Below are positions 2,173-16,585 of a DNA stretch of 19,124 bases, piece after piece. Numbering within the stretch: the stretch's first letter is position 1; each line of letters begins with the position of its first letter. Under the pieces are notes generated by a model. It did not search any database, had not been told where the DNA came from, and was given only the letters and a program-made list of their open reading frames with translations. A program made the position numbers and the translations under genes. The DNA comes from a virus (lineage: Duplodnaviria > Heunggongvirae > Uroviricota > Caudoviricetes): IMG/VR virus record IMGVR_UViG_2695420427_000009; one strand, given 5' to 3'.

Positions 2173-2955
2173 CTATTTATTGGTGATTTCTGCTGGCTTT
2201 AGCTGCGCGGATAACTGCTCAAGTTTTTGAACTGCCAGTTCAAAATGCGCGGGTAACGCCTTTTCCAGATCAGAGTTAATATCGGTGATGGGTAAATCAC
2301 CACACGACATACTCCGCCTACCCCCACGAACAACATCACGCAACAACTCTCGTTCATACGTGCGCATGTTCCCCAATGCCGACTCAGCAGCCGTCAAAAT
2401 CCGGCGCAGTTCTGCCGTAATTGCTGGCAAATCATCAACCGTTATGGGGTTCGGGGATGGATTACGACACGCCCGACGCAAAGCTAACCATACACCGCTA
2501 ATCCAGGCATTTCGGTACTGAAAACTTTGTGCTATATCGTTAATCAGCCCTCGCAGATACTCTTTCTGCCTCCAGTTCAACGGCTCCGCTGCTCGCATTG
2601 GCTCAGGCTCGATGTAAACGTACTCTCCATTTTTGCGAATAGAGGGCAAGACTTCGTTCGTTACCCATTTGCGAAACCGCCAAGCTGTTGTGCCTTGCTT
2701 CACCGCGTCACGGCAGCGGAGGATCAGGGTGTATAGACCTGACTCTGAAATAATATTTAGCTTTTGCTCTCCGCCAGGGGTGTAACTTAAAGTTACACCC
2801 TTTTCATCCTCATCCAGAGACATTAGCGCCTTCCGGGAATTAACGAGTCTTAAAGCATCACATACATCCTTAGCCACAAACCACGGCTCACCGTTAATCA
2901 TCACTACACGAACCTGATGCTCTTCCTGAAAGGAAAAGACTGCTAACGCGCTCAT
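2173..2955 (-). CDS. BRO-N domain protein, antirepressor-like (260 aa)
   Basis: N-terminus FSFQEEHQVRVVMINGEPWFVAKDVCDALRL...EKGV...GGEQKLNIISESGLYTLIL...WVTNEVLPSIRKNG is a typical BRO-N / P22 Ant N-terminal-like domain; start overlaps the stop of the upstream ORF (operon). Confidence 0.75.
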   Translation of the reverse strand: MSALAVFSFQEEHQVRVVMINGEPWFVAKDVCDALRLVNSRKALMSLDEDEKGVTLSYTPGGEQKLNIISESGLYTLILRCRDAVKQGTTAWRFRKWVTNEVLPSIRKNGEYVYIEPEPMRAAEPLNWRQKEYLRGLINDIAQSFQYRNAWISGVWLALRRACRNPSPNPITVDDLPAITAELRRILTAAESALGNMRTYERELLRDVVRGGRRSMSCGDLPITDINSDLEKALPAHFELAVQKLEQLSAQLKPAEITNK

Positions 2956-3185
2956 TCAGCCTCCTTATCGCGCAGCAAGTGCGACGAGAGAGACGCAGAA
3001 TATCCCTGTGCTTCATGCGTTAACTCACACGCAATCTGCAGAAGTTTTCCAGCCTCTGAGAGGTAAATCGACGCCTCACAACTGGAGACTGTCCGATGGG
3101 CTGATGATACGAGCGCATAGACCTGAGCCAGACGTTCATCCAACGATTCCAGCAGGCCAACAGTGTTCATTTTTACCTGATTCAT
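2952..3185 (-). CDS. Hypothetical protein, 77 aa, middle gene of ant operon
   Basis: ORF translationally coupled at both ends (its ATG overlaps the stop of the Icd-like ORF; its stop overlaps the start of the BRO-N ORF); no recognisable motif. Confidence 0.5.
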   Translation of the reverse strand: MNQVKMNTVGLLESLDERLAQVYALVSSAHRTVSSCEASIYLSEAGKLLQIACELTHEAQGYSASLSSHLLRDKEAE

Positions 3186-3346
3186 GCAGCCACCTCGCGC
3201 ACCGGAATACGGGCAGACAATACCAGGACAAACCGGCTGGCGAACTGGCGACGAGCTTCCCGTTCAGATGACGCGATAGTGGAAAGATGATGAATGTGGG
3301 ACTTTTTGTCTGTGCGAACGACTGCCGCAAATTTGAATTTGAACAT
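3182..3346 (-). CDS. Icd-like small protein (54 aa), candidate cell-division inhibitor
   Basis: Hand-translated ORF MFKFKFAAVVRTDKKSHIHHLSTIASSEREARRQFASRFVLVLSARIPVREVAA, below the ORF-track length cutoff; GGAG RBS 9 nt upstream; stop overlaps ATG of next gene (ATGA); the F.F.AV.R...EREARR...F.L...AR.PV pattern matches my recollection of P1 Icd-like proteins. Confidence 0.5.
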   Translation of the reverse strand: MFKFKFAAVVRTDKKSHIHHLSTIASSEREARRQFASRFVLVLSARIPVREVAA

Positions 3347-3512
3347 GGTATGCACTCCGTTTTATTGGTCGTGCTACCACCAGAGTTGCGAATCTCTTTA
3401 TTGGTGGTAGCCCAGGCGGGGTTCGCAATACCGGTAAACGAAGAAACCGGCCCGACCGAAGTCAGCCCCACCTGAGCCACCATAATTCGGATATGCGCAG
3501 GTCTATACACAC

Positions 3513-3589
3513 AAAAAAACACGCTGGCGCGTGTTGTGCGCTTCGTTTTGCCAGGATTGCGAAGTCCCGACTGCGGGATTTACCGCAGC
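3513..3589 (-). ncRNA. Candidate c4/CA-like small regulatory RNA upstream of the Icd-like / antirepressor operon (~77 nt)
   Basis: Minus strand: promoter-like TTGACG-N18-TAAAGT, then a short transcript with three hairpins (CTGCGG-uaaauc-CCGCAG; CUUCG with a 14-nt loop; CACGC-gcca-GCGTG) ending in a U7 run, a canonical intrinsic terminator; loop sequence UUCGCAAU is complementary to AUUGCGAA in the downstream mRNA leader. Boundaries approximate. Confidence 0.4.
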
Positions 3590-5357: not shown

Positions 5358-5549
5358 TTACTCCCCGTTCACCGAAAAATCACGATAGAAACGTTTCCAC
5401 ATACGATAAGTCTGCGCGAGTTGTTCACCACGAAACATCGCCTTCCTGGCCTTCATGTTTTCCTTGTGAGACTTTCGATCTATGAACCAAAACCATTGCT
5501 GGAACACACAAAGCAAGAGACACAAAGATAATATCCACTGATTACCCAT
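5358..5549 (-). CDS. Putative small single-TM protein (63 aa), possibly coupled to repA
   Basis: In-frame ATG 2 nt after the repA stop codon gives MGNQWILSLCLLLCVFQQWFWFIDRKSHKEN..., a hydrophobic helix plus basic tail; the longer 102-aa form in the ORF track would overlap repA by about 125 nt. Confidence 0.35.
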   Translation of the reverse strand: MGNQWILSLCLLLCVFQQWFWFIDRKSHKENMKARKAMFRGEQLAQTYRMWKRFYRDFSVNGE

Positions 5550-8500
5550 AGAAAGCGCCCTGCTCTTCGTAGCTGCATGGGCTATTCCCGGTAATGTATT
5601 CACGTAACCGCCGCAGTTCATTGCTGGATAAGTGATCCATGAACTCTGTGAGGTACAGAGATGCAAACGTCATAGCTATGCTAGCTGATGACCATGATGA
5701 CATAGTGGCCAGCTCCTCACCGGAAAGCGCACTCATCGCCCAGGACTCAGGTACAACCACTGGCAACACAGCCAAAGCCTCAGAAATTACTGAATGAGGG
5801 GCGTTTTGAACCTGCTCGTTTGTGGATCGCGTTTTATCATCCATATATATATTGAGATCCAAATCGCGATCCATTTCGATGGCGGTCTTCTCGGCTTTAC
5901 GCGTTTTCAGGGTTAGGCCATCTTTCTGACGCTGAGCAAGAATATCCAGCATAAATGCCGCTGATTCAGGCTCAACAAAACGCAAGGTTGGACGCTTATC
6001 GCCGTCTCTGCCGCGACGTTTACCTGTTTTAAGGCCAAGAGAGTCGCAAATGTTTTTAAACAACGCTTCCGGCACTTTAGGCTTCCCTTTTGGCGTCATA
6101 AAACCACCAATGTGCAGAACGTTATTCAACAGGTCACGGCGTTCGGCTGTCATGAGGTTATCTCGAGCAAATTTGAGACGCTCCTGAGTCGCCTCGCCGG
6201 TCATAGTCTCAGGGTTGATACCGCAGTCGATAAAGTACTGCCGGAGAGTTGCTGATTTAAGCGCATAGAAACCGCGCGCCCCGACTTCAACAGTAGGAGT
6301 AGCTTTTACCTTGTGATCGATTATTCCAGGGAATTTAGTTTTAAAGACATCATCAGCCTGCTCGCGAGTCATCGCGGTCACTACAAAATATTGCCACTGT
6401 CCCGCCTGACGGTATGCGTAGGTAAAATTGATGGCTGCTTCTTCCCGGTCGTAACGACGAGCTGTTACCTCATCTAAAAGCATTGTTTCATAGCGGCGAA
6501 CTTTGTCTCGAGCACCATCGAAATAGAATTTCAGCGTGCCTTCTTCAACCGGTAGTTTCAGTTCGTTTTCAATATCCCAGCGGACAAGTTTTGCCTGTTC
6601 TTCAAGCGTCAGCGCGCGTTTTTTTAGCAGTTCTTCACGCTCTGATTCTTGTGGAGTTTCTGTATTGAGATGCAGATCCAGTGTCTGTTCCCACACAATA
6701 TCCCGCGCTTCTTTACGCAGCTCTTTACCGATATCATTCGCAGCATAATCGGTGGCCAGCGGCGATACCTTATAACCGTCGCTGTGCATGATGCAGATCA
6801 TGTTGCTGGCGTAGTCGTTACGCGCAGTCGCTTCAATAGCGGCTGCTTTAATTTTCATCCTGGTAAAGTCGGTATTGGCCACCCCCATTGATATACGGTC
6901 GCCATCGAAAACGACATCCGTCAGTTCACCGTTCATACCTGCGGTAGCAAGCAATGCCTGGGCGAATGCTCGTTCTATTTTTTGCGGGTCAGTTTCACGT
7001 TTTGCACGAGCTTTATCAAAGCCGATAATAAATTCTTTTGCTGTACGGTCGCGGCGTAGCATTTGCACTGCGTCGCTGGGTACAACTTCACCACAGAACA
7101 TGCCGAAATGACGGTCAAAATGTTTTTGCTCAATCGACACGCCGGATGAAATAGACGGGCTATAAATCAGGCCGTCGTATTTTTTGACCATCTTTTTCGG
7201 TTGATTGGTAAATGCTTCAACTTCTGGCTCTGGTTTGTTTTTCTGGTTTACACACAGAAATTTCTTACCAGGAAAATGCATTCTCAGGGTGGCGGTCACA
7301 TCTTCTGCAAAGGTGGAGCTGTCGGTGGCCAACATGATTTTTTCGCCATTCGATACAGCTTTCACCACCTCGGTCATAATGCGATCTTTTTCTGTATAAA
7401 AAACCCGGATTGGCTCACCTGTTTCGCGGTTGCGAACATCAACAGGTAATTCAATTACGTGGATCTGCAGCCATGCCGGTAAACCTAGTTCTTCACGGCG
7501 TTTCATAGCCAGTTCAGCCAGGTCAACCAGCAGATCGTTCGCATCAGCATCCACCATTATTGGGTGTTGTTCCGTTCTGGCCAGCGCGTCAATTAACGTA
7601 TTGAATACAGCCACCGGGTTTTCCATAGCCCGACCGGAAAGAACGGCACGTAGCCCTTGCGTGGCCTCGTCAAAGCCAAAATAGTCGTGCTGGCGCATCA
7701 ATGGTTGCCAGCAGTTTTTAACAATCGAGTTTATGCAGATGGTCAGTTTACTGGCGTATGGAGCCATTTCCTGATAGCCAGGGTCCTGATAGTGCAGGAT
7801 ATCGGCTTTTACACCTTTTCCTTCTGTCATCATTTCCCACAGGCCACCAATAAGGGAAACACGGTGAGCAACAGAGATACCACGTTCTGAGCTATGCATT
7901 AAAGGTCGTAACAATCCAGTAGATTTGCCGGAACCCATACCAGCACGAACGATGACTATCCCCTGTAGTGATTGCACATACTTCAGGACGTCATCGGTCA
8001 TTACCGAAGTTTCAAAACGCTTATAGGTGATATGTTGAGGACGTTTATTGGGATCAGTTATTCGTTCGCTGAATGAGCGCGGAGCCTGGGCAATACGGCA
8101 CTTTTTATTCAGGCGACGGGCAATGTGGTCTTTTACCGTAGCGCGATAGATATTTTCCAGCCCAATTTCACGCAGGGCGATGCAGAACATGTTAAATAAG
8201 TCTGACGGACTGTTAGGAACCGGACAGGTTAGCATGCCAATATCCACTGCTCTCAGCAGCTCTTTGGCAAAAGTACGACGGTTATCCCGCTTAATTGTCT
8301 TCAGGCGGTTGAGCGTCAGAGATAGCAAATCAGTGCCAGTTTTCAGGCGGTTTGCAGTTGCAAACAGTTGACGTGCTGTTTCACGAAGTCCACGTAGTTT
8401 GTGCAGGTCGTTGAAGTCACTGCACTCCATTTGCGGATCGTCTTCAAAAGTTGGATAGACGCAGCGGACATCGTTGAATTTCGATAAGATTTCATAGCCA

Positions 8501-9537
8501 GTCCGCAGGCCGGTATTCCCTTTTCCTTCTGTAGCTGATTTCCGGTCATTATCCAGTGCGCAGGTGATTTTTGCCGCCGGGTACATGTTTACCAGTTGTT
8601 CCACAACATGAACCATGTTGTTAGCGGATACAGCGACAACCACAGCGTCAAAGCGTTTATCTTTTTTCGTGGCAAGCCAGATGGATGCACCAGTAGCAAA
8701 ACCTTCTGTAACAGCGATGTTTTGCGCCCCTTTCAGCTCACCGATAACAAAGCAGGCACCGACGAAATCGCCGCTGGTTACGGCGCTGGTCTGGTATTTT
8801 CCACCTTGTTTGTCGATTCGCTGCCAACCAACAATACGACCATCGTAACGACCGTCCAGGTGAGCCAGAGGGATAGCCATATACGTGGTTGGCCCCCTGC
8901 TCCATTTTGCGCTGTCGTGACTGGTCACGCGACGCACATCACACGAATTAAAAACGTCACGAATACCTTTTTTAATCGCATATGGCCATGAGCCGTCTTC
9001 TGCAGGAGCATGTTCCCAAGCACTGTGGAATGCCAGCCATCCCAGCAAACGTTCATGGTCCATTTGGTTGTTTTTCAGGTCATTAATTCGTTTTTGTTCT
9101 TCACGGCGACGACGTGCTTCGGCCTGACGTTCTATTCTTGCCCGTTCTTCTTCCGGTTGTGCGACCACGGTCGCATTATTCCGTTGTTGCTCACGGCGAT
9201 ATTCAGAAAACAGGAAGGAGAAACCGCTCCATGAGCCAGCATCGCTGCCTTTATGGACGAAGTTAATGAACGGGTAATCAATCCCTTTGCTGTGTTCCAG
9301 CCGGGAGTAAATTTCTACGCGTCCTTTGAGGCTCTTTTCGAGAGCTTCTGGGGATGTTTTATTGTATGAAGAGTAACGCTCAACACCCCCGCGAGGGTTG
9401 AGTTGGATGTTGTCGGAACAGGCAGACCAGTTGATACCAGCCATCTGTGCCAGCTCGGTTAGTTCATCCCGTGCTGCTTCAATTAGCGAGAACGGATCGC
9501 TGCCAAAGCGATCCGCATAGAAATCGTTTAATGTCAT
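5542..9537 (-). CDS. repA: Replication protein RepA, primase-helicase (1331 aa)
   Basis: Size matches N15 RepA (~1320 aa); N-terminal primase-like region with acidic motifs (TEGFATGASI, ALDNDRKS); central Walker A VRAGMGSGKST; located between the ant region and cB as in N15. Confidence 0.9.
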   Translation of the reverse strand: MTLNDFYADRFGSDPFSLIEAARDELTELAQMAGINWSACSDNIQLNPRGGVERYSSYNKTSPEALEKSLKGRVEIYSRLEHSKGIDYPFINFVHKGSDAGSWSGFSFLFSEYRREQQRNNATVVAQPEEERARIERQAEARRRREEQKRINDLKNNQMDHERLLGWLAFHSAWEHAPAEDGSWPYAIKKGIRDVFNSCDVRRVTSHDSAKWSRGPTTYMAIPLAHLDGRYDGRIVGWQRIDKQGGKYQTSAVTSGDFVGACFVIGELKGAQNIAVTEGFATGASIWLATKKDKRFDAVVVAVSANNMVHVVEQLVNMYPAAKITCALDNDRKSATEGKGNTGLRTGYEILSKFNDVRCVYPTFEDDPQMECSDFNDLHKLRGLRETARQLFATANRLKTGTDLLSLTLNRLKTIKRDNRRTFAKELLRAVDIGMLTCPVPNSPSDLFNMFCIALREIGLENIYRATVKDHIARRLNKKCRIAQAPRSFSERITDPNKRPQHITYKRFETSVMTDDVLKYVQSLQGIVIVRAGMGSGKSTGLLRPLMHSSERGISVAHRVSLIGGLWEMMTEGKGVKADILHYQDPGYQEMAPYASKLTICINSIVKNCWQPLMRQHDYFGFDEATQGLRAVLSGRAMENPVAVFNTLIDALARTEQHPIMVDADANDLLVDLAELAMKRREELGLPAWLQIHVIELPVDVRNRETGEPIRVFYTEKDRIMTEVVKAVSNGEKIMLATDSSTFAEDVTATLRMHFPGKKFLCVNQKNKPEPEVEAFTNQPKKMVKKYDGLIYSPSISSGVSIEQKHFDRHFGMFCGEVVPSDAVQMLRRDRTAKEFIIGFDKARAKRETDPQKIERAFAQALLATAGMNGELTDVVFDGDRISMGVANTDFTRMKIKAAAIEATARNDYASNMICIMHSDGYKVSPLATDYAANDIGKELRKEARDIVWEQTLDLHLNTETPQESEREELLKKRALTLEEQAKLVRWDIENELKLPVEEGTLKFYFDGARDKVRRYETMLLDEVTARRYDREEAAINFTYAYRQAGQWQYFVVTAMTREQADDVFKTKFPGIIDHKVKATPTVEVGARGFYALKSATLRQYFIDCGINPETMTGEATQERLKFARDNLMTAERRDLLNNVLHIGGFMTPKGKPKVPEALFKNICDSLGLKTGKRRGRDGDKRPTLRFVEPESAAFMLDILAQRQKDGLTLKTRKAEKTAIEMDRDLDLNIYMDDKTRSTNEQVQNAPHSVISEALAVLPVVVPESWAMSALSGEELATMSSWSSASIAMTFASLYLTEFMDHLSSNELRRLREYITGNSPCSYEEQGAFYG
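5824..5872. other. Origin-like structure inside the 3-prime part of repA: inverted repeat GGATCGCG / CGCGATCC flanking AT-rich CATATATATATT, with three GATC sites
   Basis: Seen directly in sequence; N15 ori is reported to lie within the 3-prime part of repA (established knowledge); exact correspondence not verifiable here. Confidence 0.3.
8916..8929. repeat. Palindrome CGTGAC-tg-GTCACG (copy 2 of palindrome family B), inside repA coding sequence
   Basis: Exact 12-mer GTGACTGGTCAC shared with 14851-14862 and, in opposite orientation, with 3650-3661. Confidence 0.6.
9158..9175. other. SopB-type centromere-like palindrome TGTGCGACC-ac-GGTCGCA (copy 1 of family A), inside repA coding sequence
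   Basis: Arms TGCGACC / GGTCGCA with 2-bp centre; 6 of 7 arm positions match the F-plasmid sopC core TGGGACC-AC-GGTCCCA as I recall it; same element at 11602 and 16589. Confidence 0.6.
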
Positions 9538-9782: not shown

Positions 9783-10379
9783 TCATCTACCCTCAACCAT
9801 GAATGATTTGATCGTTCCGACTATTTGGTGAACAAATTCAAGATCGCTTTTCCTGAAGATAGCGCGTTGTGAATTTGTTCCGTCCAGATAGTAATTTTCA
9901 TCATCAAAACGGGCCAGGCGCTGGATGGTGATATTTCCTGCAGTATCACGAACCAGAACATCCTCGCCGGGGACCAGTTCCAGCGCAGAATCGACCAGGA
10001 GAAAATCGCCAGGCTGATAGTTTCCCTGCGCCAGATTGCTGATAGTTAACGCATAAACAGTATTGCGCTGGCTGATGAATGGCAGGAATCGCTCAGTATT
10101 TGGAACCTGTCCTGGCTTCCACTCTTCATCAGGTCCACTTTCAGTTGTGCCAATAACAGGAATGCGATCAGGGTCATATTCTGTCCCATACAGCACCCAA
10201 TGCACTGGCTTGCGTAAGCATTTAGCCAGGGCAATACCTATCTCCAGTGACGGCATTACGTCGCCACGTTCTAAGTTTTGGACGCCTGCAATAGAGATAT
10301 CGACAGCCTCAGCAACTTCTCGCAACGTCAGCTTCATCTCTAAACGGCGTGCTTTCAGTCGTTCGCCTCGTGTTTTCAT
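9783..10379 (-). CDS. cB: Prophage repressor CB (cI-like; N-terminal HTH_XRE, C-terminal S24/LexA-like fold), 198 aa
   Basis: HTH LTLREVAEAVDISIAGVQNLERG at the N-terminus; divergent from the Cro-like gene across an operator-bearing intergenic region; size matches N15 CB. Confidence 0.8.
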   Translation of the reverse strand: MKTRGERLKARRLEMKLTLREVAEAVDISIAGVQNLERGDVMPSLEIGIALAKCLRKPVHWVLYGTEYDPDRIPVIGTTESGPDEEWKPGQVPNTERFLPFISQRNTVYALTISNLAQGNYQPGDFLLVDSALELVPGEDVLVRDTAGNITIQRLARFDDENYYLDGTNSQRAIFRKSDLEFVHQIVGTIKSFMVEGR

Positions 10380-10401: not shown

Positions 10402-10443
10402 TTATAGCTGGCTATAAAATTTATTTATTATAGCTGGCTTTAA
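10402..10443. promoter_or_regulatory. Operator pair in the cB-cro intergenic region: TTATAGC-tg-GCTATAA (10402-10417, perfect 16-bp palindrome) and TTATAGC-tg-GCTTTAA (10428-10443)
   Basis: Two 16-bp sites spaced 26 bp centre to centre; the second abuts the cro ATG; an additional palindrome ATCAT-aa-ATGAT sits at 10386-10397. Confidence 0.6.
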
Positions 10444-10692
10444 ATGAGATTTATTGCTTATAATAACCGCATGAAACCAGAAGAACTTATTCGCCACTTT
10501 GGCAGTGTAGAAAAAGCAGCGGCTGGGGTAGGTGTAACACCCGGTGCTGTTTACCAATGGTTAACCGCTGGAGAGATTCCTTCATTGCGGCAAAGTGATA
10601 TTGAAGTTCGTACTGCTTACAAGCTGAAGAGTGACTTTACAACTCGGCGGGTAAAGCAGTCGATTAAGGAGAGCCGTAAGCGTGGAGCTTGA
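10444..10692 (+). CDS. cro: Cro-like HTH regulator (82 aa)
   Basis: Small ORF divergent from cB with HTH SVEKAAAGVGVTPGAVYQWL; an alternative start at M10 (10471) is possible. Confidence 0.7.
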   Translation: MRFIAYNNRMKPEELIRHFGSVEKAAAGVGVTPGAVYQWLTAGEIPSLRQSDIEVRTAYKLKSDFTTRRVKQSIKESRKRGA

Positions 10693-11392
10693 GTATATAC
10701 GCAGCTGCGTCTCCACGGCATTGGCTGATATTCATTATCGCCAGCGTGGCATCCTAGAGGTCCAGCTTGAGCAGATGCGTCTAGGCAGATCAGGACGCTT
10801 TAACAATAAACCAGTCCGGTCAATCAGTGTAGGTGATGATAACTCATACGAAGTGTCCGTTCCTGCTGAGCCGGTTAGATTCCACCAGGGGAAAACATTT
10901 AAACAATCATCAATGTTGCTCACTGATATTGATTTTCAGAGCGCCAGCTGGCGCAGGGCTATTGGTCAGTTGAATAACGAGGAATCAGCCTGGCTTTATT
11001 ATTGCTACGGATGCAAGCCTGATTACAACAATGATGTGATTGTTTGTCAGTGGTTATGGCTTGATTTTCTGGTTGCTCATTCGGGGGGCGGCTTTAAAAA
11101 AATGAAGGCCTCCACGAAAAAAGCCATGCGGAAATTGATTTATTACGCGGCACAGCAGGTTAAATCAGAACTTACGTGTGCTGAGGCAGTTGATGAGAGA
11201 GAACAGGACAGGCATCTGAGTTTTCTACTGAATATATCTATTGATAGCTGGAGACAAGATTATAAAGAACGCTGGCTTTTAATTAAGTCGCGATGTCTGA
11301 GCTTAAATCGAACTGCATTATTAAATGCGGCGGAGAAGCGCAGTGAAATCATCAAACGCCATCGGGCAGGAAGTGCCATTCTGCCTTTGTAA
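10682..11392 (+). CDS. Q-like putative late-gene antiterminator (236 aa from GTG 10682; first in-frame ATG at 10775)
   Basis: Assigned mainly by synteny (cB-cro-Q order as in N15 and lambdoid phages) and a Cys-containing motif YYCYGC; no motif I can verify by eye. Confidence 0.4.
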   Translation: MELEYIRSCVSTALADIHYRQRGILEVQLEQMRLGRSGRFNNKPVRSISVGDDNSYEVSVPAEPVRFHQGKTFKQSSMLLTDIDFQSASWRRAIGQLNNEESAWLYYCYGCKPDYNNDVIVCQWLWLDFLVAHSGGGFKKMKASTKKAMRKLIYYAAQQVKSELTCAEAVDEREQDRHLSFLLNISIDSWRQDYKERWLLIKSRCLSLNRTALLNAAEKRSEIIKRHRAGSAILPL

Positions 11393-13736: not shown

Positions 13737-14512
13737 TGATCACGTTTACCGACAAAGAACTGATTAAAGAAATCAAAGAGCGAATCGGTAGCCTGGACGT
13801 TCGAGACAATATTGAGCGCCGTGCTTATGAAATTGCACTGGCATCGCTGGAAGCAGATCCAGTTGCTTATATTTTCAAACATCCAGCCGGAAAATTATTC
13901 TGGTCGTTGACCGATGAAAGCAATAAAGAACAACCGGACGTGATTTCTGTTTATGCTGCCTCACCTGCACCGATATCGTCGGAGGCCATTGAATACGCAA
14001 TTGAATACATCCGCAGTATCGCTTTTCACATCGATGAAGACGATTACCACGGCAAACATATTGCGTATTTCATGCGACAAGCATTGGCCTGGCTGGAAGG
14101 GCATTCATGCAGCGACGACAGGCTGGGTAAGGCCGACAATCAACCCGCATCTGGTAACCAGGCTGCCGAATCCAATCGCGGTAATGAGTGGACTGGCAAT
14201 CCTGATATTGATAACGCCATCATCATGCTCGATCGCATAGATACGCTGGAAAATTGCGATGATGACCGTATTGAGGCGGTTAAGGCTGTTTTGCGTAGAC
14301 TGGCTGGCAACTATCCGGTAATTCCGGATGGTTGGATAAGCTGTAGTGAGCAAATGCCAGATGATGGTCGTATTCAGTTTTCTGTTTCACTTCCAGCAGC
14401 ATGTGGTGGAGATAAATATTTTATTGATGGTGTATTTCAACCTTTGAGATATGAGCGTGACTGTGAAAAAGCGGTTGTGGCCGCTGGCGGTGTAGTTAAT
14501 TGGGTTAAGTAA
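13736..14512 (+). CDS. Phage protein with DUF551-like C-terminal domain (258 aa)
   Basis: Start moved to the ATG overlapping the upstream stop (ATGA); the ORF-track start at 13697 would overlap the previous gene by 40 nt. Confidence 0.55.
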   Translation: MITFTDKELIKEIKERIGSLDVRDNIERRAYEIALASLEADPVAYIFKHPAGKLFWSLTDESNKEQPDVISVYAASPAPISSEAIEYAIEYIRSIAFHIDEDDYHGKHIAYFMRQALAWLEGHSCSDDRLGKADNQPASGNQAAESNRGNEWTGNPDIDNAIIMLDRIDTLENCDDDRIEAVKAVLRRLAGNYPVIPDGWISCSEQMPDDGRIQFSVSLPAACGGDKYFIDGVFQPLRYERDCEKAVVAAGGVVNWVK

Positions 14513-14527
14513 TTTTTAGGAGGATTT

Positions 14528-14854
14528 ATGGCGCTGACACCGGCAGAACGGCAAAGAAGACGCAGGGAACGGTTGAAGAAGGAAGGAACATCAAGACGTG
14601 ACTGGATTCTGGAACCTGACGAGTTACGTATGTTGGGGGAAATTTGTGTATTGCGTAGACCAGGGCGAGTTCCATATTCAGAGAACGAAGTCATCGGACT
14701 GCTGATCAGGAAAAACTATAAGGAGTTGCAGAAACAGCTATCTACTACTTGTCCGCGATGTGGTCAAAAAATGCCTGTTTCAGAATGCATTTTTGATGGT
14801 GAAGGCTCATGCCACCTTACAACCACGAGGCTGAAACTTGCGCTCAAAGTGTGA
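14528..14854 (+). CDS. Hypothetical basic protein with C-terminal Cys cluster (108 aa)
   Basis: Strong RBS TAGGAGGA 5 nt upstream; Arg-rich N-terminus (RQRRRRERLKKEG) and CPRCG...C...C Zn-ribbon-like tail. Confidence 0.6.
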   Translation: MALTPAERQRRRRERLKKEGTSRRDWILEPDELRMLGEICVLRRPGRVPYSENEVIGLLIRKNYKELQKQLSTTCPRCGQKMPVSECIFDGEGSCHLTTTRLKLALKV

Positions 14855-14862
14855 CTGGTCAC
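14851..14862. repeat. Palindrome GTGAC-tg-GTCAC (copy 3 of palindrome family B), spanning the stop codon of the 14528 ORF
   Basis: Exact 12-mer identical to 8917-8928. Confidence 0.6.
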
Positions 14863-14872
14863 GGAGGGATAA

Positions 14873-15028
14873 ATGGACAAAAAGGCATTGCTTTTTGAAA
14901 TGATACGAAAACGGAGCGAAAAGAGCTTTTCTGATGGTGGTGATGGGCTTTTGAAAGTGGTTGGGCGAGGCGTAGGAAGGGAACATAAGTATCGGACTAC
15001 AAAGATATTTAACCAGTTAATCCATTGA
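14873..15028 (+). CDS. Small hypothetical protein (51 aa), absent from the ORF track
   Basis: ATG preceded by GGAGGG RBS at 7-nt spacing; MDKKALLFEMIRKRSEKSF... Confidence 0.35.
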   Translation: MDKKALLFEMIRKRSEKSFSDGGDGLLKVVGRGVGREHKYRTTKIFNQLIH

Positions 15029-15029
15029 A

Positions 15030-15046
15030 AGTTGGCTATAAAATTT
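15030..15046. promoter_or_regulatory. 17-mer AGTTGGCTATAAAATTT, 16/17 identical to the right half of the cB-cro operator plus flank (10406-10422)
   Basis: Direct comparison within the window; suggests a CB operator half-site and/or a shared -10 element TATAAAAT. Confidence 0.45.
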
Positions 15047-15054
15047 GAGTTTTA

Positions 15055-15074
15055 CCCTGTAATTTTATACAGTA
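15055..15074. promoter_or_regulatory. LexA (SOS) box CCCTGTAATTTTATACAGTA
   Basis: CTGT-N8-ACAG with AT-rich spacer and 3-prime TA; the only such site in the window; 23 bp upstream of the 15097 ORF. Confidence 0.6.
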
Positions 15075-15096
15075 TCAAATAACCTTTTTTAATTAA

Positions 15097-15315
15097 ATGG
15101 TATTAGATTCAATGACTGAAGCACCTGTATCAACTCTTGAAGAACTCGGATCAAACCTAAAAGACATCGACGCCGTTTTGGATCTGGTTAGCGTTGCTCT
15201 GGCTTCTCCAGAAGCCAGCTTGCATCTTGGCGAGATTTCACGACTTGTTAGTATGTCGCGGGAGATTGCTCAGAATTGCCAACAAGTTATTGCTGTTGAG
15301 TGTTTACATCATTGA
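15097..15315 (+). CDS. Small protein (72 aa) under a LexA box, candidate SOS-inducible antirepressor (N15 AntC-like role)
   Basis: ORF directly downstream of the LexA box; no strong RBS (alternative start at 15112); functional call is inference from context. Confidence 0.45.
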   Translation: MVLDSMTEAPVSTLEELGSNLKDIDAVLDLVSVALASPEASLHLGEISRLVSMSREIAQNCQQVIAVECLHH

Positions 15316-15321
15316 TACACA

Positions 15322-15341
15322 CCCCGCCCTTCTGGACGGGG
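15322..15341. terminator. GC-rich hairpin between convergent genes (possible bidirectional terminator)
   Basis: CCCCG...CGGGG stem with 4-nt loop; no clean U tract on either strand. Confidence 0.3.
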
Positions 15342-15358
15342 TAGCGAAAAGGGTCTAA

Positions 15359-15646
15359 TCAATAGACGGCATTAATATTAATCGTTGCACCGCATGCTTG
15401 GGCATATTTTGATAAAGTTTTCATGCTTGCCCCTAAAGGATTGCTTTCCAGGCGGCTGATAGCTGACGGGCGCAATCCCATTCGTTCAGCCAGAGCTGAC
15501 TTCGTTAAACCTGCTCTTTCCCTCATTTCGTATAACATTTCGACCATCTCCAGCTCTTTATCGGCCTCTTCATATCCTTTGATGGCTTCTGGAGTGTTGA
15601 GAAGTTTTTCTTTTACTTCGTTAAACGGGATGCCTTTCGCTTTCAT
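15359..15646 (-). CDS. HigA-like antitoxin, HTH_XRE family (95 aa)
   Basis: HTH LTKSALAERMGLRPSAISRLE; start overlaps toxin stop (TGATG); located downstream of toxin as in HigBA-type modules. Confidence 0.75.
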   Translation of the reverse strand: MKAKGIPFNEVKEKLLNTPEAIKGYEEADKELEMVEMLYEMRERAGLTKSALAERMGLRPSAISRLESNPLGASMKTLSKYAQACGATININAVY

Positions 15647-15957
15647 CAGTTCATCTCCTTCAGGCGAGTTCTGGCGATTTCGATAGCCTTCACCGGTGTT
15701 TTCTGTGTCTTTTTTACAAATGCATGCAATAGATAAATTTCGTTACCAGTCGCGTAGGCGTACAGCGTTCTTGCGATGTTTTTATCCCCTACTCGTAGTT
15801 CAAAAAGCCCTCCACCTATTACACGGCTATGGGGCATCTTCAGTTTGTTGCCTTCTTTCTCCAGTCGCTCAATTAATCTGGTCATGCGACCTCGCAAATC
15901 ATCTGGTAGTTCAAGCAGTTCATCCAGTGCTGCAGGGTGGGTTATCACGTTAAACAT
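15646..15957 (-). CDS. RelE/ParE-superfamily toxin, HigB-like / phage Gp49-like (103 aa)
   Basis: GGAGG RBS 8 nt upstream; sequence ...GGGLFELRVGDKNIARTLYAYATGNEIYLLHAFVKKTQKTP matches the Gp49-like toxin pattern; toxin-first gene order. Confidence 0.75.
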   Translation of the reverse strand: MFNVITHPAALDELLELPDDLRGRMTRLIERLEKEGNKLKMPHSRVIGGGLFELRVGDKNIARTLYAYATGNEIYLLHAFVKKTQKTPVKAIEIARTRLKEMN

Positions 15958-16015
15958 ATTATAGCCTCCATATCCATAAAATACACCAAAACAAGAAAAC
16001 AGCGCAAATTAAAAA

Positions 16016-16033
16016 TTTCACTAAAAAGTGAAA
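16016..16033. promoter_or_regulatory. Palindromic operator candidate TTTCACT-aaaa-AGTGAAA in the divergent promoter region of the TA module
   Basis: Perfect 7-bp arms with 4-bp spacer, about 60 bp upstream of the toxin start codon. Confidence 0.45.
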
Positions 16034-16122
16034 AATAACACTGGATGTGTTCGTTTGGCAGAGTTACAGTTCGTGTCATTGAGGGGCAATAACCAACTAA
16101 CTATATGAATTTGGAGGATATT

Positions 16123-16344
16123 ATGAATTATCAAGGTAACGAAAAAATGCGCGACGACGTTGCGGAGATAGCTAACGAACTGTATGAGTTGTGGCAGAAG
16201 GTTGAACGTTTCGAAAAGGAATATGGTTTCAACAGTACCAACCTAGCAGACCGACTGGCTGGTCGCTTAGTTGGGACTATGGGGCCAAAACTGGCTGAGT
16301 TGAACCGCTTTATGGCTGATGTTGATTTCCAGTTTCAAGATTGA
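16123..16344 (+). CDS. Hypothetical protein (73 aa from ATG 16123; ORF track starts at 16105)
   Basis: GGAGGA RBS lies inside the 16105 ORF, 6 nt upstream of the second ATG, so 16123 is the more likely start. Confidence 0.5.
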   Translation: MNYQGNEKMRDDVAEIANELYELWQKVERFEKEYGFNSTNLADRLAGRLVGTMGPKLAELNRFMADVDFQFQD

Positions 16345-16357
16345 TTAGAGAGGCGTT

Positions 16358-16585
16358 ATGAATATTAATGAAATTCGTGGAAATATGACTGAAGCGGCCC
16401 TGAGTGTGGAATGTGTTATGCGTGGATACCCACGCATTTCCCTGAAAGAGTTAAGCGAAGCCTGTTTTTTGAGTCAAGCTGCCGTTGAATTTATCATCGA
16501 ACAGATGATCTGTTTTGGGGTTGCAAAGCGTAGCGGGTCTGGTCGATATTCTTTGACCGATGAATATAAGCAGGCAACTTTCTAA
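16358..16585 (+). CDS. Small putative winged-helix DNA-binding protein (75 aa)
   Basis: RBS GAGAGG upstream; sequence ...ISLKELSEACFLSQAAVEFIIEQMICFGVAKRSGSGRYSLT resembles small wHTH regulators; weak assignment. Confidence 0.45.
   Translation: MNINEIRGNMTEAALSVECVMRGYPRISLKELSEACFLSQAAVEFIIEQMICFGVAKRSGSGRYSLTDEYKQATF

What the first reader, a model, noticed from the sequence alone, without database searches (positions are those of the whole stretch)
15030..15315. Single consensus LexA box driving a small ORF: candidate SOS-triggered antirepressor for prophage induction
CTGT-aattttat-ACAG-TA at 15055-15074 is the only CTGT-N8-ACAG site in the window and sits 23 bp upstream of a 72-aa ORF. 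Immediately upstream is a 17-mer nearly identical (16/17) to part of the cB-cro operator, so the promoter may be under dual LexA and CB control. CB has an S24-like C-terminal fold but N15-type repressors are reported not to be RecA-cleaved; induction in N15 is via a LexA-controlled antirepressor. This ORF is the best candidate for that role here, although it carries no recognisable motif.
Basis: partly seen in the sequence, partly recalled or inferred. Interest (0 to 1): 0.65.

Follow-up and report, generated by a model that had tools for sequence, protein, structure and literature searches.

The report
LexA-controlled AntC antirepressor gene of N15-like prophage
This is the local copy of a known switch: a small gene kept silent by the host DNA-damage repressor LexA, whose protein in phage N15 switches off the prophage repressor. 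The call is correct but ordinary, and databases still label the gene "hypothetical".

Summary
CTGTAATTTTATACAG (15057-15072) is the only exact CTGT-N8-ACAG site in the window. It overlaps the -10 of a weak promoter in front of a small ORF.

The ORF is the positional and sequence ortholog (56-57% identity, E 2e-17) of an unannotated N15 ORF between genes 47 and 48. That N15 ORF has its own LexA box and, by elimination, is N15 antC, the published LexA-repressed antirepressor of repressor CB.

All 64 related loci examined carry the box 55-59 nt upstream of the conserved ATG. They include a roughly 30%-identical homolog, found in a separate search, with the same promoter layout.

The real start is most likely the second ATG (15112, 67 aa), not 15097 (72 aa). 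dN/dS is 0.19-0.45. The predicted fold is a two-helix hairpin with an invariant SPEASLH loop.

The 16/17 match to the cB-cro operator is real and statistically unusual. It is missing from sister phages that have the same CB and the same operators, so dual LexA+CB control is not supported.

Verdict: a correctly spotted, uncharacterised allele of a known system. Interest is low. The practical value is annotation, because every source calls this protein "hypothetical".

The parts
15055..15074 (.). LexA (SOS) box: 20-mer CCCTGTAATTTTATACAGTA, with the core CTGT-N8-ACAG at 15057-15072.
   Evidence: It is the only exact site in the window and matches the 20-nt consensus at 15/20. A box is present in all 64 homologous loci at a fixed distance; phiKO2 has ATGT in place of CTGT.
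15045..15050 (+). Putative -35 hexamer TTGAGT of PantC.
   Evidence: The TTTG at 15044-15047 is invariant in the 8-phage alignment, and the spacing to the box is fixed. The element is inferred. The generic promoter scan did not call it, because it scores 8/12 and the tool needs 9/12.
15068..15073 (+). Putative -10 hexamer TACAGT, 17 nt from the -35. It lies inside or overlaps the right arm of the LexA box.
   Evidence: TATACAGTAT (15066-15075) is invariant in all relatives. Bound LexA would therefore block RNA polymerase; this step is inferred.
15099..15104 (+). Shine-Dalgarno-like GGTATT (GGTAGG in the Klebsiella phages and phiKO2), ending 7 nt before the conserved ATG.
   Evidence: GGTA is invariant in alignment A1.
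15112..15315 (+). antC ortholog: 67 aa plus stop. An alternative upstream in-frame ATG at 15097 would give 72 aa.
   Evidence: tblastn gives 57% identity to the N15 ORF (E 2e-17), 50% to phiKO2 Gp47 and 76% to YDC107_1/PhiR46_1. It hits phrog_6301 at 3.6e-36 and phrog_10889 'anti-repressor' at 1.4e-6. dN/dS is 0.19-0.45. The AF2 model is a helical hairpin, H8-30 and H39-66, with pLDDT 85.
15026..15041 (.). CB-operator-like 16-mer TGAAAGTTGGCTATAA. It matches operator TTATAGCTGGCTATAA at 13/16: the right half-site is perfect and the left half is poor. It ends 3 bp upstream of the -35.
   Evidence: Searches show the 14-nt exact match, reached or exceeded by 3 of 2000 shuffles. It is not conserved in phages with the same CB and operators. 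Its status as a functional site is doubtful.
15321..15342 (.). GC-rich hairpin between the convergent antC and the higA-like gene. It may be a terminator but has no U-tract.
   Evidence: Folding gives -15 kcal/mol on the + strand (z -1.45) and -22.6 kcal/mol on the - strand (z -3.18). The terminator scan found nothing.
9783..10379 (-). cB prophage repressor (198 aa), the presumed target of AntC.
   Evidence: It is 78% identical to N15 CB. Pfam finds an HTH_3 domain plus a sub-threshold Peptidase_S24 match. LexA Ser119 and Lys156 align to Ala and Gln in a weak alignment.
10402..10443 (.). cB-cro operators TTATAGCTGGCTATAA (10402-10417) and TTATAGCTGGCTTTAA (10428-10443). This is the source of the 17-mer similarity.
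   Evidence: Sequence is. The same 16-mer occurs in the annotated N15 CB operator region. The TA-N10-TA operator motif is described in PMC4997575.

Best explanation
The locus is the antC module of an N15-like (Ravinvirus) linear plasmid-prophage.

Proposed mechanism:
1. A weak sigma-70 promoter (TTGAGT, 17 nt, TACAGT) is covered by one host LexA box, so in an undamaged lysogen LexA keeps antC off.
2. DNA damage activates RecA, LexA cleaves itself and the promoter opens.
3. The 67-aa two-helix AntC protein is made. It binds the non-cleavable repressor CB and removes it from the OR and OL operators.
4. cro/Q and repA are then derepressed and lytic growth starts.

Shown here: the box, its uniqueness, its invariant position across the family, homology and synteny with the N15 ORF, purifying selection, and a CB that appears to lack the autocleavage dyad.

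Inferred: LexA binding, the exact promoter elements, AntC binding to CB, and that the N15 ORF is the published antC.
For: - The box is exact and unique in the window.
- It is conserved in 64 of 64 loci, representing at least 31 distinct upstream sequences, 55-59 nt from the conserved ATG. The rest of the intergenic DNA diverges.
- A roughly 30%-identical homolog on a 46-kb contig (L065) keeps TTGCGG-N7-CTGTATGTTTGTACAGTA.
- The ORF is 57% identical (E 2e-17) to an unannotated N15 ORF in the same slot, between the gene 47 homolog and the gp48/gp49 toxin-antitoxin pair.
- N15 has only two A/T-spacer LexA boxes. One precedes this ORF and the other precedes umuD-like gene 26.
- The literature states that N15 induction is started by antC, a separate locus outside immA and immB. 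AntC is a LexA-controlled antirepressor acting on the prophage repressor.
- N15 CB is experimentally non-proteolytic, and its sequence lacks the Ser/Lys dyad. In the window's CB these positions align to Ala and Gln.
- There is a PHROG hit to an 'anti-repressor' family.
- dN/dS is 0.19-0.45.
- CB and AntC pairwise identities co-vary, r = 0.83 over 27 distinct pairs. This is not corrected for phylogeny.
Against: - The primary paper (Mardanov & Ravin 2007, PMC1951935) is not held. That the N15 ORF is antC therefore rests on elimination and on my recollection that antC lies between genes 47 and 48.
- The generic promoter scan did not call this promoter.
- Identity to the N15 protein is only 57%.
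- AntC alleles only 75-79% identical occur with essentially identical CB, so the residues that set specificity are unknown.
- No structure or sequence match to any solved protein helps assign a mechanism.
- One distant homolog (L066) has no LexA box.
Confidence: 0.85

Rival explanations
1. Dual lock. CB binds the operator-like site at 15026-15041 just upstream of the -35 and modulates PantC together with LexA. It would either repress, or activate from about -47 in the way lambda CI activates PRM.
For: - There is a 16/17 match, 14 bases exact, to the strongest-looking cB-cro operator. Only 3 of 2000 shuffles reach 14.
- It is the only 11-mer or longer shared with the OR region anywhere in the window.
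- The 16-mer matches the operator at 13/16 with a perfect right half-site.
- The motif is invariant within the window's allele group, which comprises 6 distinct upstream sequences, while DNA further upstream varies.
Against: - The motif is absent from YDC107_1, PhiR46_1 and L023-L030. PhiR46_1, YDC107_1 and the IMG/VR loci that reach cB encode CB at 99.5-100% identity.
- It is also absent from L009, which has the same CB and the same operators. There the sequence upstream of the -35 is replaced altogether.
- The homologous positions in other lineages read GGCTGTATCG or GACCGTAAAG, so the resemblance needs only a few substitutions on an A/T-rich background.
- The left half-site is poor.
- A CB lock on antC would work against SOS induction.
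- Nothing I could read reports CB operators outside OR and OL.
Confidence: 0.08
2. The ORF is LexA-regulated but is not an antirepressor in this phage. It could be a small SOS-induced modulator such as a DinI-like RecA regulator, a division inhibitor or an anti-defence factor.
For:
- The fold is a generic helical hairpin with no informative structural neighbour.
- Divergent AntC alleles co-occur with an identical CB.
Against: - The ORF is orthologous and syntenic to the N15 ORF that is the only plausible antC.
- There is no similarity to DinI, Tum or any Pfam family.
- It matches a PHROG family labelled anti-repressor.
- CB needs an antirepressor because it does not autocleave.
Confidence: 0.05
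3. Chance. The CTGT-N8-ACAG site is a random A/T-rich palindrome, and the ORF is either not a gene or not under SOS control.
For: One exact site per 19 kb arises in about 21% of shuffles. The promoter scan found no consensus promoter here.
Against: - The box is kept in 64 of 64 loci at a fixed distance, through lineages where the flanks are dissimilar.
- dN/dS is 0.19-0.45.
- The exact protein is found on at least 1000 contigs.
Confidence: 0.02

Closest known systems
AntC of coliphage N15 (Mardanov & Ravin 2007, J Bacteriol 189:6333), with phiKO2 Gp47 as its annotated homolog.
   Same: - Same genomic slot in the right arm, between the gene 47 homolog and the gp48/gp49 toxin-antitoxin pair.
- Same size class, 67-70 aa.
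- 56-57% identity to the N15 ORF and 50% to phiKO2 Gp47.
- Invariant D(I/L)DAVLD and SPEASLH motifs.
- Same single LexA box overlapping the -10.
- Same type of partner, a CB repressor 78% identical to N15 CB.
   Different: - It is a different allele. The C-terminal third (QNCQQVIAVECLHH) is unlike N15's.
- The first in-frame ATG is probably unused.
- An operator-like 17-mer upstream of the -35 is found only in this allele group.
- No experiment exists for this allele, and every database calls it 'hypothetical protein'.
Gifsy-1/-2/-3 antirepressors GfoA, GftA and GfhA of Salmonella (Lemire et al. 2011, PMC3121763).
   Same: Same logic. These are small proteins encoded outside the immunity region and directly repressed by LexA. 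They bind a non-cleavable repressor and remove it from DNA.
   Different: - They sit in a different phage type (lambdoid, integrated).
- They lie in an operon with a dinI homolog.
- No sequence relationship was tested here, because no Gifsy sequences were available to me. Only a weak hit to a PHROG labelled 'anti-repressor', of unknown membership, was seen.
Tum of coliphage 186.
   Same: It is a LexA-repressed antirepressor that binds its cognate repressor.
   Different: Tum is 146 aa with a DinI-like C-terminal half. The window protein is 67 aa and shows no DinI or Pfam similarity.
The immA anti-immunity system of N15 (Bro-N/Ant-type antirepressor controlled by a small RNA).
   Same: It also counteracts CB, and it is also present in this window: a Bro-N protein at 2173-2955 (-) and an Ash-family protein at 3136-3522 (-).
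   Different: It is a large, unrelated protein at a different locus, with no LexA box. Per the literature it is controlled by an RNA and repressor rather than by SOS.

Membership tests
N15 AntC family (LexA-controlled small antirepressor of telomere phages) | Sequence homology to N15 AntC. | tested here: met
   tblastn gives 57% identity over 68 of 72 residues, E 2e-17, to N15 nt 39604-39807. The alignment has 26 invariant columns. Caveat: that this N15 ORF is antC is inferred, because the primary paper is not held.
N15 AntC family (LexA-controlled small antirepressor of telomere phages) | Conserved position in the right arm, outside immA and immB, between the gene 47 homolog and the gp48/gp49 (HigA/HigB-like) pair. 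| tested here: met
   The gene order is the same in the window, YDC107_1, phiKO2, N15, PhiR46_1 and KpLi5, with family assignments.
N15 AntC family (LexA-controlled small antirepressor of telomere phages) | A LexA box overlapping the promoter of the gene. | tested here: met
   CTGT-N8-ACAG lies at 15057-15072 and overlaps the putative -10 TACAGT. It is kept in 64 of 64 loci.
N15 AntC family (LexA-controlled small antirepressor of telomere phages) | LexA actually binds and represses the promoter, which is derepressed on SOS induction. | not testable with these tools
   This needs EMSA or footprinting, and reporter assays in lexA(Ind-) and lexA(Def) hosts.
N15 AntC family (LexA-controlled small antirepressor of telomere phages) | The protein binds CB and relieves repression, and is required for induction. 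| not testable with these tools
   Only indirect evidence exists: CB and AntC identities co-vary (r = 0.83, uncorrected for phylogeny). This needs a pull-down or two-hybrid assay and a deletion of antC.
N15 AntC family (LexA-controlled small antirepressor of telomere phages) | The partner repressor is not RecA-cleavable. | tested here: inconclusive
   In a weak BLASTP alignment (E 0.23), LexA Ser119 aligns to Ala and Lys156 to Gln. The Peptidase_S24 match is below Pfam's cut-off. N15 CB, which is 78% identical, is reported non-proteolytic and lacking the dyad.
Tum/DinI-fusion antirepressors (phage 186) | A protein of about 146 aa with a DinI-like C-terminal domain. | tested here: not met
   The protein is 67 aa with no Pfam or NCBIfam hit at E <= 0.01.
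Bro-N/KilAC (P22 Ant, N15 immA) antirepressors | A Bro-N or ANT domain in a protein of more than 200 aa. | tested here: not met
   The ORF has no such domain. The window's Bro-N protein is a separate gene at 2173-2955 (-).

The most novel reading that the evidence does not exclude
In this particular allele group, the antC promoter may have acquired a CB half-operator (15026-15041) immediately upstream of the -35. CB itself would then tune, either priming or damping, the SOS-triggered synthesis of its own antirepressor. That would be a lineage-specific feedback loop not described for N15.
Probability: 0.08. Interest if true: 0.45.

Novelty: new member of a known kind. Interest (0 to 1): 0.2.

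Why it matters
The biology is the published N15 induction pathway, so the result changes little in principle.

Its practical value is annotation. This exact protein is seen on at least 1000 contigs from E. coli and Shigella and on 11 complete E. coli plasmids. It is labelled 'hypothetical' everywhere, and the N15 reference record does not annotate antC at all.

Naming the family would let SOS-inducibility of N15-like phage-plasmids be read directly from sequence. The defining features are the 67-70 aa helical hairpin, the SPEASLH loop and the LexA box 55-59 nt upstream.

The finding that AntC alleles 75-100% identical pair with one CB gives a natural panel for mapping the residues that contact the repressor.

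Tried and rejected
- Reading the primary antC paper and the phiKO2 genome paper: neither is held. Five literature searches gave no text with antC coordinates.
- Pfam and NCBIfam scans: no family for the ORF.
- Large protein searches: only about 41 close clusters, all unnamed, and 15 representatives among 1.84 billion proteins.
- Foldseek against PDB and a profile search against PDB sequences: only generic helical hairpins and noise.
- Rfam on 14400-16400: nothing above the gathering score. The RyhB-like hit has E 0.039 and 26 bits against a 55-bit threshold.
- Generic promoter and terminator scan: it called neither PantC nor the downstream hairpin.
- A profile including the distant homologs was too divergent to scan the viral collection.
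- Heterology-index scoring of the LexA box: rejected, because I do not hold the reference matrix and would have had to rebuild it from memory.

Full report
**Context.** The window is the right arm of an N15-like (Ravinvirus) linear plasmid-prophage.
- It encodes protelomerase (106-2001), a Bro-N antirepressor with an Ash-family protein (the immA-type locus, 2173-3522, minus strand), and repA (5542-9537, minus).
- It also encodes cB (9783-10379, minus), cro (10444-10692) and Q (10682-11392), followed by a run of small genes.
- The closest phage records are Escherichia phages PhiR46_1 and YDC107_1, at 94% identity over 14400-16400. phiKO2 matches part of the region at 77%.
- In complete E. coli genomes this segment occurs in 11 of 5426 genomes, always on plasmids of 36-68 kb.

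**Checking the observation.**
- CTGTAATTTTATACAG lies at 15057-15072 and is the only exact CTGT-N8-ACAG site in the window. The 20-mer matches the E. coli LexA consensus at 15/20, and its spacer is entirely A/T.
- On its own this is weak evidence: 42 of 200 shuffles contain at least one such site.
- The ORF 15097-15315 (72 aa) exists.
- The operator similarity is exactly as stated. 15030-15046 matches 10406-10422 at 16/17, with 14 consecutive identities. Only 3 of 2000 shuffles of the promoter region reach 14, and this is the only 11-mer or longer shared with the cB-cro intergenic region anywhere in the window.

**What the ORF is.**
- tblastn finds homologs only in telomere phages:

| Phage | Identity to the window ORF |
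|---|---|
| PhiR46_1, YDC107_1 | 76% |
| N15 | 57% (E 2e-17) |
| Enterobacter phage MStein-2023a | 51% |
| phiKO2 Gp47 | 50% |
| Six Klebsiella phages | about 51% |

- In N15 the match falls at nt 39604-39807, in the unannotated gap between gene 47 and gene 48. An open frame there is preceded by CCCTGTGTTTATATACAGTA.
- Gene order is the same everywhere. It runs: a phrog_536 regulator, the gene 47 homolog, this ORF, then a convergent HTH antitoxin with a Gp49/RelE-type toxin, then the gene 50 and 51 homologs.
- The whole N15 genome has three exact CTGT-N8-ACAG sites. One lies inside the tape-measure gene and has a GC-rich spacer. The other two have A/T spacers: one immediately upstream of umuD-like gene 26, the other upstream of this ORF.
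- The accessible literature says that N15 induction is initiated by antC. It describes antC as a separate gene outside immA and immB, and AntC as a LexA-controlled antirepressor acting on the prophage repressor.
- By elimination, and in line with my own recollection that antC lies between genes 47 and 48, the N15 ORF is antC and the window ORF is its ortholog.
- I could not read the primary paper. This is the main residual uncertainty.

**Comparative footprint.**
- In an eight-phage alignment of the upstream region (64% mean column identity), the invariant blocks are TTTG (the -35 region), TGT..TT.TATACAGTAT (the box plus two bases), GGTA, and the second ATG.
- A scan of IMG/VR added 52 loci. 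Together with the named phages and four assembled contigs, all 64 loci carry the box 55-59 nt upstream of the conserved ATG. phiKO2 has ATGT in place of CTGT. At least 31 distinct upstream sequences are represented.
- A homolog only about 30% identical (L065, a 46-kb contig) still has TTGCGG-N7-CTGTATGTTTGTACAGTA. Another distant homolog (L066) has no box.
- The inferred promoter is TTGAGT (15045-15050), a 17-nt spacer, then TACAGT (15068-15073). LexA bound to the box would cover the spacer and the -10.
- This promoter scores 8/12, which is below the threshold of the generic scan, and the scan did not report it.

**Start codon and coding status.**
- The first ATG (15097) is followed by an in-frame TGA in YDC107_1 and PhiR46_1, and it is absent in the Klebsiella phages.
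- The second ATG (15112), with GGTA(GG) ending 7 nt upstream, is universal.
- NCBI-derived entries are 67 aa. The product is therefore most likely 67 aa.
- dN/dS between alleles is 0.19-0.45.
- AlphaFold2 with a 14-sequence alignment gives a two-helix hairpin (residues 8-30 and 39-66, mean pLDDT 85). The invariant SPEASLH motif sits in the connecting loop.
- There is no informative structural or sequence match in the PDB.
- There is no Pfam or NCBIfam family. PHROGs places the protein in phrog_6301 (unknown function, 3.6e-36), with a weaker hit to phrog_10889, labelled anti-repressor (1.4e-6). The N15 ORF behaves the same way.
- The family is small: 15 representatives at E <= 1e-3 among 1.84 billion proteins. 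Every source names its members 'hypothetical'.

**The partner.**
- The window's CB is 78% identical to N15 CB.
- N15 CB has been shown to be non-proteolytic, and N15 and phiKO2 CB lack the Ser/Lys dyad.
- In a weak alignment to E. coli LexA, Ser119 aligns to Ala and Lys156 to Gln in the window's CB. The Peptidase_S24 match is below Pfam's threshold.
- A repressor of this kind needs an antirepressor to respond to SOS.
- Across 27 distinct CB/AntC pairs, pairwise identities correlate (r = 0.83) and AntC evolves faster. This is not corrected for shared ancestry.
- AntC alleles as low as 75% identical occur with CB that is at least 98% identical.
- Against YDC107_1, a divergent patch (14950-15400, 66-86% identity) sits within flanks that are 92-100% identical. 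Inside the patch, the 50-nt bin holding the box is 94% identical.

**Dual control by CB.**
- The operator-like element (15026-15041, TGAAAGTTGGCTATAA) matches operator TTATAGCTGGCTATAA at 13/16. It has a perfect right half-site and ends 3 bp upstream of the -35.
- It is statistically unusual and invariant within the window's own allele group.
- It is absent from PhiR46_1 (CB 100% identical) and YDC107_1 (CB 99.5% identical).
- It is also absent from L023-L030 and from the E. albertii contig L009. L009 has the same CB and the same operators, and its sequence upstream of the -35 is different altogether.
- The homologous positions in other lineages read GGCTGTATCG or GACCGTAAAG, so only a few substitutions separate the window's sequence from them.
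- A CB lock on antC would also oppose SOS induction.
- I rate a functional CB site at about 8%. If real, it would be a lineage-specific addition.

**Verdict.** This is an uncharacterised allele of the known N15 AntC module, under a single conserved LexA box. The ORF start should be moved to 15112. The CB-operator idea is not supported by comparison. Novelty is low, and the main use is to annotate a widespread 'hypothetical protein'.

Noticed in passing
window 14873-15028 (+): The gene 47 homolog is only 51 aa. Relative to YDC107_1 (80 aa) the window has an 87-nt (29-codon) gap at about 14900-14950, and the PHROG match is split into two stretches. The 3' end of this gene and the antC cassette form a divergent mosaic patch (66-86% identity) inside flanks that are 92-100% identical.
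   Followed up: partly
window 15359-15957 (-): A HigA-like HTH antitoxin (95 aa, HTH_3) and a Gp49/RelE-type toxin (103 aa, PF05973) are convergent with antC. The hairpin between them (15321-15342) has no U-tract on the + strand, so SOS-induced antC transcription might read antisense into the antitoxin gene.
   Followed up: no
N15 (L008) nt 21658-21677: The second good LexA box of N15, TACTGTATAAAAAAACAGTT, lies 15 nt upstream of gene 26 (UmuD-like protein). N15 therefore has two SOS-controlled genes. This region is outside the window.
   Followed up: no
upstream of the -35 in many loci (e.g. L003 15549-15559, L032, L043, L060-L063): A semi-conserved block, GGCTGTATCG or CAGCTATATCG, directly abuts the -35 TTTGCG in several otherwise divergent lineages. 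It could be an UP-like element or a site for an unknown factor. It is the background from which the window's operator-like motif differs by a few bases.
   Followed up: partly
L066 5984-6195: A distant AntC-family member (about 32% identical to the A7 query P0076, with motif SDECSLF...MSRELVGEC) has no LexA box upstream. The family may be wired to other signals in some elements.
   Followed up: no
window 16009-16080 (-): There is a weak RyhB-like Rfam hit (26 bits against a 55-bit gathering score, E 0.039) in the divergent promoter region between the toxin gene and the gene 50 homolog. It is most likely chance.
   Followed up: no
window 2173-3522 (-): The immA-type anti-immunity locus is present: a Bro-N antirepressor of 260 aa, a 77-aa ORF and an Ash-family protein. 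The phage therefore carries two independent antirepressor systems, as N15 does.
   Followed up: partly
IMG/VR contigs behind L014/L015, L039/L040, L050/L059, L051/L054 and L053/L058: Several viral contigs carry the antC locus twice, in opposite orientations on the same contig. This fits head-to-head dimer assemblies of linear hairpin-ended plasmids, or assembly through the telomere.
   Followed up: no
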